Assembly: GCA_964016885.1 (NCBI GenBank)
Contig: OZ024740.1
Location: forward strand, 300,948,001-301,012,000
Source: Eledone cirrhosa
Lineage: Eukaryota
DNA length: 64,000 nucleotides
Direction: 5' to 3'
Each line of letters starts with the position of its first letter. The first letter of the stretch is position 1. The position numbers were made by a program, and so were the translations under genes. The notes beneath the pieces are model-generated. The model was not told the DNA's origin. It searched no databases and saw only the letters and a list, made by a program, of their open reading frames with translations. Shown here piece after piece: positions 11,462 to 14,400 of the stretch.

Positions 11462-14400
11462 TATTAGAAAGATCGAGTATCGAAAAATCGGCGCACGAGT
11501 TAACGAAAAACGAAATCCGATATGAGCGGCAGAGGGCTCAATAATTCAGATGAATCAGAGCTATAACTATCGTTAAAATACCGTCACATATAGAACAAGT
11601 CTACAATCAACCATACGATTTAAAATCGATAAAGGAAGATTCGGGCCAAACAGATAAAAAATATCAATAAAACAATACGTCAATAATTTAAATGAATGTA
11701 AAATCATACCCGGACCCACTAGAAAGGTGTTAAATCTAGCTTCATGGGTTTCTGTAAATCCTAAGACAGTACTCTATCAGCTCACATATAAATATAAAAG
11801 CCTACTAGAATAAGTGGAAAGGAGTTTACGTTGTCAACGAGTTTTATCCTGGCGGCAAAGGAGTCAACTAGCGGTGAAAAACGCACATGGCATTAGACAA
11901 GGGAGATGACCCCTATATCCGCGAAAATAATTCGAGTGAATGTGGAAATACACATATCGAATTAGAGTGCTCAATAGACATGTTAAAATAAAACAAAAGC
12001 TATTCATCACTCAATAGAATCGACAAAATATGAGCAATAAATTTACTGGTGGATAGCTATGTCCAGAGCTAAATATATTAGAAAGATCGAGTATCGAAAA
12101 ATCGGCGCACGAGTTAACGAAAAACGAAATCCGATATGAGCGGCAGAGGGCTCAATAATTCAGATGAATCAGAGCTATAACTATCGTTAAAATACCGTCA
12201 CATATAGAACAAGTCTACAATCAACCATACGATTTAAAATCGATAAAGGAAGATTCGGGCCAAACAGATAAAAAATATCAATAAAACAATACGTCAATAA
12301 TTTAAATGAATGTAAAATCATACCCGGACCCACTAGAAAGGTGTTAAATCTAGCTTCATGGGTTTCTGTAAATCCTAAGACAGTACTCTATCAGCTCACA
12401 TATAAATATAAAAGCCTACTAGAATAAGTGGAAAGGAGTTTACGTTGTCAACGAGTTTTATCCTGGCGGCAAAGGAGTCAACTAGCGGTGAAAAACGCAC
12501 ATGGCATTAGACAAGGGAGATGACCCCTATATCCGCGAAAATAATTCGAGTGAATGTGGAAATACACATATCGAATTAGAGTGCTCAATAGACATGTTAA
12601 AATAAAACAAAAGCTATTCATCACTCAATAGAATCGACAAAATATGAGCAATAAATTAACTGGTGGCTAGCTATGTCCAGAGCTAAATATATTAGAAAGA
12701 TCGAGTATCGAAAAATCGGCGCACGAGTTAACGAAAAACGAAATCCGATATGAGCGGCAGAGGGCTCAATAATTCAGATGAATCAGAGCTATAACTATCG
12801 TTAAAATACCGTCACATATAGAACAAGTCTACAATCAACCATACGATTTAAAATCGATAAAGGAAGATTCGGGCCAAACAGATAAAAAATATCAATAAAA
12901 CAATACGTCAATAATTTAAATGAATGTAAAATCATACCCGGACCCACTAGAAAGGTGTTAAATCTAGCTTCATGGGTTTCTGTAAATCCTAAGACAGTAC
13001 TCTATCAGCTCACATATAAATATAAAAGCCTACTAGAATAAGTGGAAAGGAGTTTACGTTGTCAACGAGTTTTATCCTGGCGGCAAAGGAGTCAACTAGC
13101 GGTGAAAAACGCACATGGCATTAGACAAGGGAGATGACCCCTATATCCGCGAAAATAATTCGAGTGAATGTGGAAATACACATATCGAATTAGAGTGCTC
13201 AATAGACATGTTAAAATAAAACAAAAGCTATTCATCACTCAATAGAATCGACAAAATATGAGCAATAAAATTAACTGGTGGATAGCTATGTCCAGAGCTA
13301 AATATATTAGAAAGATCGAGTATCGAAAAATCGGCGCACGAGTTAACGAAAAACGAAATCCGATATGAGCGGCAGAGGGCTCAATAATTCAGATGAATCA
13401 GAGCTATAACTATCGTTAAAATACCGTCACATATAGAACAAGTCTACAATCAACCATACGATTTAAAATCGATAAAGGAAGATTCGGGCCAAACAGATAA
13501 AAAATATCAATAAAACAATACGTCAATAATTTAAATGAATGTAAAATCATACCCGGACCCACTAGAAAGGTGTTAAATCTAGCTTCATGGGTTTCTGTAA
13601 ATCCTAAGACAGTACTCTATCAGCTCACATATAAATATAAAAGCCTACTAGAATAAGTGGAAAGGAGTTTACGTTGTCAACGAGTTTTATCCTGGCGGCA
13701 AAGGAGTCAACTAGCGGTGAAAAACGCACATGGCATTAGACAAGGGAGATGACCCCTATATCCGCGAAAATAATTCGAGTGAATGTGGAAATACACATAT
13801 CGAATTAGAGTGCTCAATAGACATGTTAAAATAAAACAAAAGCTATTCATCACTCAATAGAATCGACAAAATATGAGCAATAAAATTAACTGGTGGATAG
13901 CTATGTCCAGAGCTAAATATATTAGAAAGATCGAGTATCGAAAAATCGGCGCACGAGTTAACGAAAAACGAAATCCGATATGAGCGGCAGAGGGCTCAAT
14001 AATTCAGATGAATCAGAGCTATAACTATCGTTAAAATACCGTCACATATAGAACAAGTCTACAATCAACCATACGATTTAAAATCGATAAAGGAAGATTC
14101 GGGCCAAACAGATAAAAAATATCAATAAAACAATACGTCAATAATTTAAATGAATGTAAAATCATACCCGGACCCACTAGAAAGGTGTTAAATCTAGCTT
14201 CATGGGTTTCTGTAAATCCTAAGACAGTACTCTATCAGCTCACATATAAATATAAAAGCCTACTAGAATAAGTGGAAAGGAGTTTACGTTGTCAACGAGT
14301 TTTATCCTGGCGGCAAAGGAGTCAACTAGCGGTGAAAAACGCACATGGCATTAGACAAGGGAGATGACCCCTATATCCGCGAAAATAATTCGAGTGAATG

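What the first reader, a model, noticed from the sequence alone, without database searches (positions are those of the whole stretch)
11704..11791. Possible new hammerhead core: 8-nt AUAGAGUA with A3-U8 swap and a bulge-loop kissing contact
Seen: in place of CUGAnGA the core reads A-U-A-G-A-G-U-A. It aligns if A3/U8 replaces the C3-G8 tertiary pair and one A is inserted between U4 and G5; G5, A6, A9, G12-A14 and GUC are retained. Stem I has a 5-nt bulge GUGAG whose UGAG is complementary to CUUA in loop II, where natural HHRs make their activating stem I-stem II contact (established). The unrelated element at 48472-48507 has a similarly spaced 8-nt core, CUAGUUGA (C3-G8 with the same inserted A), which hints at a real variant class rather than decay. 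Inference: G8 normally supplies the general-acid 2'-OH, so activity may be reduced or conditional.
Basis: partly seen in the sequence, partly recalled or inferred. Interest (0 to 1): 0.8.

Follow-up and report, generated by a model that had tools for sequence, protein, structure and literature searches.

The report
Oversized variant hammerhead in tandem retrozyme
The flagged bases are the back half of a 142-nucleotide predicted hammerhead ribozyme with an unusual core and a very long second stem, repeated in every 615-base unit of a mobile tandem repeat with thousands of copies, which likely cuts its own RNA into circles that are copied back into the genome.

Summary
The motif is on the minus strand, in each unit of a 14-copy, 614/615-bp tandem array from a family with at least 3,737 pattern matches in this genome (control 9). 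Across 48 diverged copies the proposed A3-U8 pair holds in 6 and the 8-mer varies freely; those bases are paired inside a 76-nt stem II. The real 5' core lies 60 nt upstream (window 11837-11830): U3 U4 G5 A6 N7 A8 A9 plus one extra base. U4, G5, A6 and A9 are kept in 47-48 of 48 and N7 is free; stems I-III and a stem I-stem II pseudoknot keep pairing through changes. Unusual: 3-8 is U-A, U.G or C.A, and A.A or C.A replaces the 10.1-11.1 pair, also in a 60%-identical sister family. Rfam misses it. Fixed 3' ends in (TA)n and ragged 5' ends fit a Penelope-mobilised retrozyme. Cleavage is untested. Verdict: new variant of a known kind.

The parts
11465..19929 (-). Tandem array of 14 ribozyme-bearing units (13 full 614/615-bp units plus a 5'-truncated one); RNA sense is the minus strand, fixed 3' end at about 11465
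11251..11464 (.). (TA)n target microsatellite at the element's 3' end; a second (TA)n lies at 20049-20113 beyond the 5' end
   Evidence: 60 of 62 distinct 3' ends of the family run into a TA repeat
11708..11849 (-). Whole predicted type I pseudoknot hammerhead, 142 nt (first copy; 13 more at 614/615-bp steps)
11846..11849 (-). Pseudoknot 5' strand, preceding stem I (GGAU here; GGAC, GAAC or GGAA in relatives)
11838..11842 (-). Stem I 5' strand (ACUCG)
   Evidence: proximal 4 pairs 99% paired over 48 copies
11830..11837 (-). 5' core strand U3 U4 G5 A6 C7 A8 A9 plus one extra base (C here, A in 46 of 48)
   Evidence: these columns were in no search pattern used to collect the 48 copies
11754..11829 (-).
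11816..11819 (-). Pseudoknot 3' strand in the internal loop of stem II (UUCC here; GUCC or GUUC in relatives)
11750..11753 (-). 3' core strand: extra A (11753), G12 (11752), A13, A14
   Evidence: AGAA also in 22 of 27 copies of the distant family
11714..11749 (-). Stem III (A15.1-U16.1 plus three C-G pairs) with an extension hairpin 11740-11718
   Evidence: 94.8% and 96.9% paired
11712..11713 (-). Predicted cleavage site between C17 (11713) and C1.1 (11712)
   Evidence: hammerhead analogy; 5 of 25 nearby 5' junctions start exactly here
11708..11712 (-). Stem I 3' strand (CGGGU)
11642..11645 (-). Downstream CCCG that can capture the stem I 3' strand; predicted off state in the monomer circle
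   Evidence: kept in 66 of 83 distinct downstream stretches, 14 not parsed; circular fold
11752..11780 (-). Alternative hairpin (11780-11773 with 11758-11752) that would sequester G12; possible second off state
   Evidence: 95.2% paired with covariation, but 9.7 kcal/mol above the ensemble in this copy and not evident by eye in the distant family

Best explanation
Each 615-base unit carries a type I hammerhead fold with a conserved variant core and a 76-nt stem II, predicted to cut the RNA after GUC (11713|11712); the unit-length RNA would circularise and is likely copied back into (TA)n sites by a Penelope-like reverse transcriptase supplied in trans, giving head-to-tail arrays. Shown: the array, the family, the conserved core letters, pairing kept through changes in stems I-III, the fixed 3' and ragged 5' ends. 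Inferred: chemistry as in other hammerheads (G12 as base, the 2'-OH of position 8 as acid, which does not need position 8 to be G); a 3-4 bp pseudoknot between the strand before stem I and an internal loop of stem II offsetting the weak 3-8 pair and the unpaired 10.1/11.1 position; folding of the active form during transcription, with stem I later lost to a downstream CCCG so that the circle is protected; ligation; the identity of the helper element.
For: Core columns not used in any collecting pattern: U4 48/48, G5 47, A6 47, A9 47, N7 free (G24, U11, A11, C2), position 3 always a pyrimidine and 8 always a purine, while only 2 of the 30 following columns reach 96%. The window copy's minimum-energy fold is this three-way junction. 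Model on 48 copies: 84.2% of cells paired, 100 cells with double changes against 31.7 shuffled and at most 29 when slid; stem II pair 2 is kept in 48/48 as U-A, C-G or U-G. Pseudoknot: 182 of 192 cells Watson-Crick, two separate double changes on the tree. A 60-64% identical family keeps the 8-nt and 4-nt junction strands, an 8-bp stem II, a stem I with a U-A pair and the pseudoknot. In contigs of other organisms the listed changes in the core fall on N7 and the extra base (40 of 61 rows shown). 5 of 10 G/C-ending 5' junctions near the site start exactly at C1.1 (p about 0.003). 60 of 62 3' ends enter (TA)n. Units within an array are identical, 15/15 and 11/11. Known model: PMC7229834, PMC4209133, 10.64898/2026.07.22.740005.
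Against: No cleavage or RNA data: no RNA holder was listed and only contigs were laid. No Rfam match even at E 10. The 10.1-11.1 pair is absent, a feature Perreault 2011 used to reject candidates, and U.G or C.A at 3-8 is not Watson-Crick. In one branch the middle of proximal stem II is mismatched (13 and 15 of 48 unpaired), and RNAalifold on the alignment chose the G12-sequestering hairpin over stem II. A broader junction list shows 2 at the site but 2, 1 and 3 at the next three bases and 6 at 6-7 bases upstream, so the pile-up is not sharp. G12-A15.1 and parts of stems I and III were search anchors, so their invariance among the 48 is by construction. The pseudoknot strand was picked by a pattern that fixes two of its four letters, and scores 53.8% on the uncorrected alignment. 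Eight of nine predicted Xenopus retrozymes did not cleave in vitro. No autonomous partner was found.
Confidence: 0.75

Rival explanations
1. The fold is hammerhead-derived but barely cleaves or does not cleave alone; it is kept as a structure for the helper reverse transcriptase or needs a protein, and arrays arise by repeated template jumping on linear RNA or by DNA-level expansion.
For: Missing 10.1-11.1 pair and non-Watson-Crick 3-8 in 21 of 48 copies; stem I unformed in the monomer circle (p 0.002); weak junction peak; low in vitro activity of Penelope hammerheads and of most tested Xenopus retrozymes.
Against: The letters conserved are exactly the catalytic set, with N7 free, over 40% divergence; the pseudoknot that speeds natural hammerheads is kept; 5' ends at C1.1 with none at the G/C-ending positions 1-5 bases upstream.
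Confidence: 0.15
2. The functional fold is the alternative hairpin (CUG-A-YRGW with WYYR-CAG) with stem III beside it: a different structured RNA or ribozyme, with the hammerhead likeness secondary.
For: Top covarying helix in an unbiased scan of about 600 columns; 95.2% paired, 45 double-change cells against 12.9 shuffled; chosen by RNAalifold.
Against: Three of its seven pairs were search anchors; it costs a median 7.1 kcal/mol against 3.9 for the hammerhead fold, which is favoured in 34 of 48; it is broken in the branch with the best stem II (L374, L388) and not evident in the distant family; it does not explain the conserved upstream core.
Confidence: 0.06
3. One reading: an 8-nt core AUAGAGUA with an A3-U8 pair, CUG/CGG as stem I and a bulge-loop kiss.
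For: CUG/CGG is complementary in 47-48 of 48, though both strands were search anchors; the distal helix is 83% paired.
Against: A3-U8 6 of 48; stem II 55.6%; kiss 9 of 48; the 8-mer has 15 forms; pair probabilities near zero; the second element's U is private.
Confidence: 0.02

Closest known systems
Non-LTR retrozymes of animals (Cervera and de la Pena 2020, PMC7229834; Li et al. 2026, 10.64898/2026.07.22.740005)
   Same: Non-coding, low-GC tandem repeats with one type I hammerhead per unit, dispersed monomers and multimers, co-occurrence with Penelope-like elements.
   Different: Unit of 615 nt (170-400 nt in the 2020 paper, within the 51-972 bp range of the preprint); long stable stem III so no dimer is needed; 76-nt stem II; non-canonical core; expression and circles not shown here.
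Pseudoknot-type type I hammerheads (Perreault 2011, PMC3088659; structure in PMC11300833)
   Same: A strand outside stem I pairs with unpaired bases of stem II; U4 G5 A6, A9, G12-A14, A15.1-U16.1, GUC.
   Different: The partner is an internal loop about 9 bp out on a long rod, not a terminal loop on a short stem II; G10.1-C11.1 is displaced by one mismatched position; C3-G8 is never used.
U3-A8 hammerheads and minimal hammerheads of Penelope-like elements (PMC4209133; PMC3088659)
   Same: U3-A8 in place of C3-G8 (27 of 48 copies); an extra nucleotide after A9.
   Different: U3.G8 (17) and C3.A8 (4) also occur in multi-copy branches; an extra A precedes G12; stem III is complete; no ORF is attached.

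Membership tests
Type I hammerhead ribozyme | Three stems round one junction, 5' and 3' ends in stem I | tested here: met
   minimum-energy fold of the window copy; stems I, II proximal and III 99.0, 85.3 and 94.8% paired in 48 copies
Type I hammerhead ribozyme | U4 G5 A6, free N7, A9 | tested here: met
   48, 47, 47 and 47 of 48; N7 variable
Type I hammerhead ribozyme | Watson-Crick 3-8 pair (C3-G8, or the known U3-A8) | tested here: inconclusive
   U-A in the window copy and 27 of 48; U.G 17, C.A 4
Type I hammerhead ribozyme | G12 A13 A14, A15.1-U16.1, H17 | tested here: met
   present in the window copy; A-U 47 of 48; partly fixed by the search anchors; AGAA in 22 of 27 of the distant family
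Type I hammerhead ribozyme | Paired 10.1-11.1 directly next to A9 and G12 | tested here: not met
   A.A in 46, C.A in 1, G.A in 1 of 48, followed by an invariant G-C; equally read as one inserted base on each strand
Type I hammerhead ribozyme | Stem I-stem II tertiary contact | tested here: met
   3-4 bp pseudoknot, two separate double changes; alignment columns out of register
Type I hammerhead ribozyme | Match to an Rfam hammerhead model | tested here: not met
   no match at E up to 10; none among the 150 of 157 rows listed
Type I hammerhead ribozyme | Site-specific self-cleavage | not testable with these tools
   indirect only: 5' junctions
Non-LTR retrozyme | Tandem units each holding a type I hammerhead | tested here: met
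   14 of 14 units in the window
Non-LTR retrozyme | No protein coding, no LTR, GC under 50% | tested here: met
   no stop-free frame of 220 aa listed within units; GC 0.35-0.37; shorter ORFs not examined
Non-LTR retrozyme | Expressed as linear and circular monomer RNA | not testable with these tools
   no RNA run available
Non-LTR retrozyme | Sequence relation to the terminal repeat of an autonomous Penelope-like element | not tested
   no dedicated search; Penelope-like ORF pieces lie in the same genome but none was shown to share the unit's ends
   6 of 48; 15 forms
Hatchet, pistol, hairpin, HDV-like, twister ribozymes | Family covariance model or consensus topology | tested here: not met
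   no Rfam match; topologies read do not map; the hairpin, HDV and twister comparisons were by eye from recalled consensus

The most novel reading that the evidence does not exclude
This is the type member of an overlooked hammerhead class in which the 3-8 pair relaxes to wobble or mismatch, an A.A or C.A replaces the 10.1-11.1 pair, stem II carries a long insert, and a pseudoknot restores fast cleavage, with a downstream strand switching the ribozyme off in the circle. Rfam models and short-stem descriptors cannot see it, so animal genomes may hold many more ribozyme-driven circular retroelements than counted.
Probability: 0.45. Interest if true: 0.7.

Novelty: new variant of a known kind. 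Interest (0 to 1): 0.5.

Why it matters
The hammerhead core is among the most constrained RNA motifs; the 10.1-11.1 and 3-8 pairs are treated as filters in surveys. A family with thousands of recently spread copies that drops one and relaxes the other, over about 40% divergence, gives natural, ready-made tests of how far a pseudoknot can compensate, and shows a blind spot in ribozyme annotation. The genomic ends also make the rolling-circle model of animal retrozymes directly testable. It is not a new class of ribozyme or element, and activity is unproven.

Tried and rejected
Rfam scans of the window, of the array's first two units, of 48240-48730 and of a diverged copy: no ribozyme family. 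Reading CUGAUAGA (11780-11773) as CUGAnGA with one insertion: dropped when G8/A9 varied in diverged copies. Reading the alternative hairpin plus a GGA/UCC pseudoknot as hatchet- or pistol-like: dropped once the upstream core was found. A search for short-stem-II relatives gave 25 matches against 34 control; three were deletion copies of the families (L456, L457, L471). Sequencing runs: no RNA holder listed; X13 laid nothing; runs with small shares were not used. Earlier scan notes: nothing. The paper on 3-8 exchanges (PMC1986816) is not held. No covariance model was built and no R-scape test was available.

Full report
OBSERVATION. The bases described are on the minus strand of 11704-11791. 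Rfam finds no ribozyme. The genome is 3.0 Gb and unnamed.

THE FAMILY. Pattern searches of the own genome gave 1,083 (control 0), 574 (control 36), 522 (control 0), 311 (control 0, overlapping rows) and, for the broad pattern, 3,737 matches (control 9). Branches are 64-92% identical over the whole unit. Of 62 distinct 3' ends, 60 run into a TA repeat, 49 of them at 7, 8 or 10 bases after a conserved terminal motif; 5' ends are scattered. A fixed 3' end and ragged 5' ends are the usual trace of target-primed reverse transcription (established knowledge), and make the minus strand the RNA. Seventeen public runs hold part of the unit, seven of them half or more of its words, under 14 organism codes; the seven different runs laid that returned or could return contigs (X1, X3, X6, X9, X11, X12; X13 laid nothing) include a 564-nt piece with 5 differences. 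Whether these are close relatives or transfers cannot be told from coded names.

I aligned 48 copies, representatives at under 96.5% identity of 109 distinct segments. A3-U8 pairs in 6 of 48 and the required stem II is 55.6% paired. The 8-mer has 15 forms; the bulge-loop contact is complete in 9 of 48. The element at 48472-48507 is a separate repeat; its U is private (1 of 30), and one copy (L071) follows a C-terminal GIY-YIG piece (E 1.3e-4, at the gathering score), so it is likely the terminal repeat of a Penelope-like element.

WHAT IS THERE. Folding whole units and the 166-nt region shows a three-way junction with 8, 4 and 1 unpaired bases. Stem I is 11842-11838 with 11712-11708. The 5' core strand is 11837-11830. 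Then come an extra A, G12-A14 (11752-11750), stem III and C17 (11713). Core counts of 48: position 3 U44/C4, U4 48, G5 47, A6 47, position 7 G24/U11/A11/C2, position 8 A31/G17, A9 47, extra base A46/C1/G1 (the 3'-side coordinates in that call were off by three and were corrected). These columns were in no collecting pattern, whereas GCUGA, AGAAA and CCnGG were, so invariance of the latter is by construction. The model has 84.2% of cells paired and 100 double-change cells (shuffled 31.7, slid at most 29); related copies inflate such counts. A 4-base strand before stem I matches a strand in the first internal loop of stem II as GGAC/GUCC (22), GAAC/GUUC (14), GGAA/UUCC (4), eight others; on the tree this is two separate double changes. 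The strand was picked by a pattern that fixes two letters, and one strand was shifted by hand in L118. On the uncorrected columns it scores 53.8%. A distant family, 60-64% identical and hit by a profile of the 48 in 30 of 30 loci against 0 of 30 loci of the unrelated repeat, keeps the core (UUGAGA then AA or AC in 26 of 27), AGAA (22 of 27), an 8-bp stem II (21-27 of 27 per pair) and, by eye, the pseudoknot and a stem I with a U-A pair; it looks older and shows no tandem copies in the 30 loci.

HOW IT LIKELY WORKS. Read-through transcripts of an array would fold the rod first, then stem III, then close stem I, and cut after GUC. G12 as base and the 2'-OH of nucleotide 8 as acid are established for hammerheads. 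Monomers would be ligated to circles, as shown for coral, mussel and axolotl retrozymes, and copied round and round by a Penelope-like enzyme priming in (TA)n; such elements favour AT-rich or (TA)n targets and can start copying inside the template. In the predicted circle stems II and III stay (p 0.96, 0.87) but stem I is lost (p 0.002) to a downstream CCCG that is kept in 66 of 83 stretches: a likely off state. A second possible off state is the G12-sequestering hairpin. Indirect sign of cleavage: the first 100 of 131 rows collapse, by eye, to 33 loci: 6 point mutants, 2 internal deletions and 25 5' junctions; 5 begin exactly at C1.1, and these are 5 of the 10 that end on G or C (p about 0.003 for nine eligible positions chosen after the fact). 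Against: in the first 100 of 136 rows the counts are 2 at the site, 2, 1 and 3 at the next three bases, none at the G/C-ending positions 1-5 bases upstream and 6 at 6-7 bases upstream. This is suggestive only.

AGAINST THE READING. No activity or expression data. In one branch two middle pairs of proximal stem II are mismatched. The hammerhead fold lies a median 3.9 kcal/mol above the ensemble without the pseudoknot, 0.5 in the window copy. RNAalifold preferred the alternative hairpin. Most predicted Xenopus retrozymes did not cleave.

COMPARISON. It works like a pseudoknot type I hammerhead in a non-LTR retrozyme. U3-A8, an extra base after A9, insertions at 2a/2b, 6a and 13a, and a U.U at 10.1-11.1 are published. 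I did not see an A.A or C.A at 10.1-11.1 (or an extra A before G12), multi-copy U3.G8 or C3.A8, or a 76-nt stem II in the texts read or in the listings of eight searches. The library lacks most subscription papers, and unseen supplements (Perreault 2011 Figures S6-S7 and Dataset S1; alignments of Cervera 2014 and 2020) may hold similar cases. Read: PMC4209133 parts 1-2 of 4; PMC7229834 parts 2-3 of 6; PMC3088659 passages and section 8; PMC8557442 and PMC11300833 passages; PMC10085705 part 3 of 8; PMC11167929, PMC6561176 and PMC4604425 part 1; 10.64898/2026.07.22.740005 parts 1-3 of 5. The numbering convention and the hairpin, HDV and twister consensus used for comparison are recalled.

VERDICT. 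Real feature, wrong core. A new variant of a known kind: interest 0.5; 0.7 if the variant core proves fast and widespread.

Noticed in passing
window 12040-12046 and the same site in each unit (minus strand): The 13 full units of this array are identical except at one site, where four short variants alternate (6, 5, 1, 1 copies), plus one nearby substitution; two other arrays have no variation (15/15, 11/11). This would fit one circular template with a lesion or odd linkage misread on successive passes; assembly error is not excluded.
   Followed up: partly
window 19930-20048: A 120-bp piece of another dispersed repeat (76-80% matches elsewhere, 724 candidates) is joined to the array's 5' end before the (TA)n; possibly a template switch.
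   Followed up: partly
window 48405-48690: Terminal repeat of a Penelope-like family (1,248 candidates; GIY-YIG piece upstream in L071) with a hammerhead-like motif whose family junction reads CAGUUGAU rather than CUGAnGA; an inverted partial copy lies at 48235-48398. Activity doubtful; not analysed further.
   Followed up: partly
window 21956 (+) and 21824 (-): Two canonical-core minimal hammerhead motifs (CUGAAGA plus an extra G, long stem II, GAAA) on opposite strands flank the perfect hairpin at 21852-21929, as described for inverted Penelope ends.
   Followed up: no
window about 11945-12000 (minus strand), each unit: A second conserved block in the unit, NUGAUGA facing UUGA across a hairpin, resembles a kink-turn or box C/D motif (resemblance recalled, not tested).
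   Followed up: no
L466:1500-1540 and L477: Two identical short motifs with a canonical CUGACGA core, one extra base on each side of stem II, and 4-bp stems I and III: the same 8-plus-4 junction in an apparently unrelated context, but found among chance-level hits.
   Followed up: no
L456, L457, L471: Natural copies that have lost the inner rod of stem II but keep core, pseudoknot strand and stems; useful as minimal constructs.
   Followed up: partly
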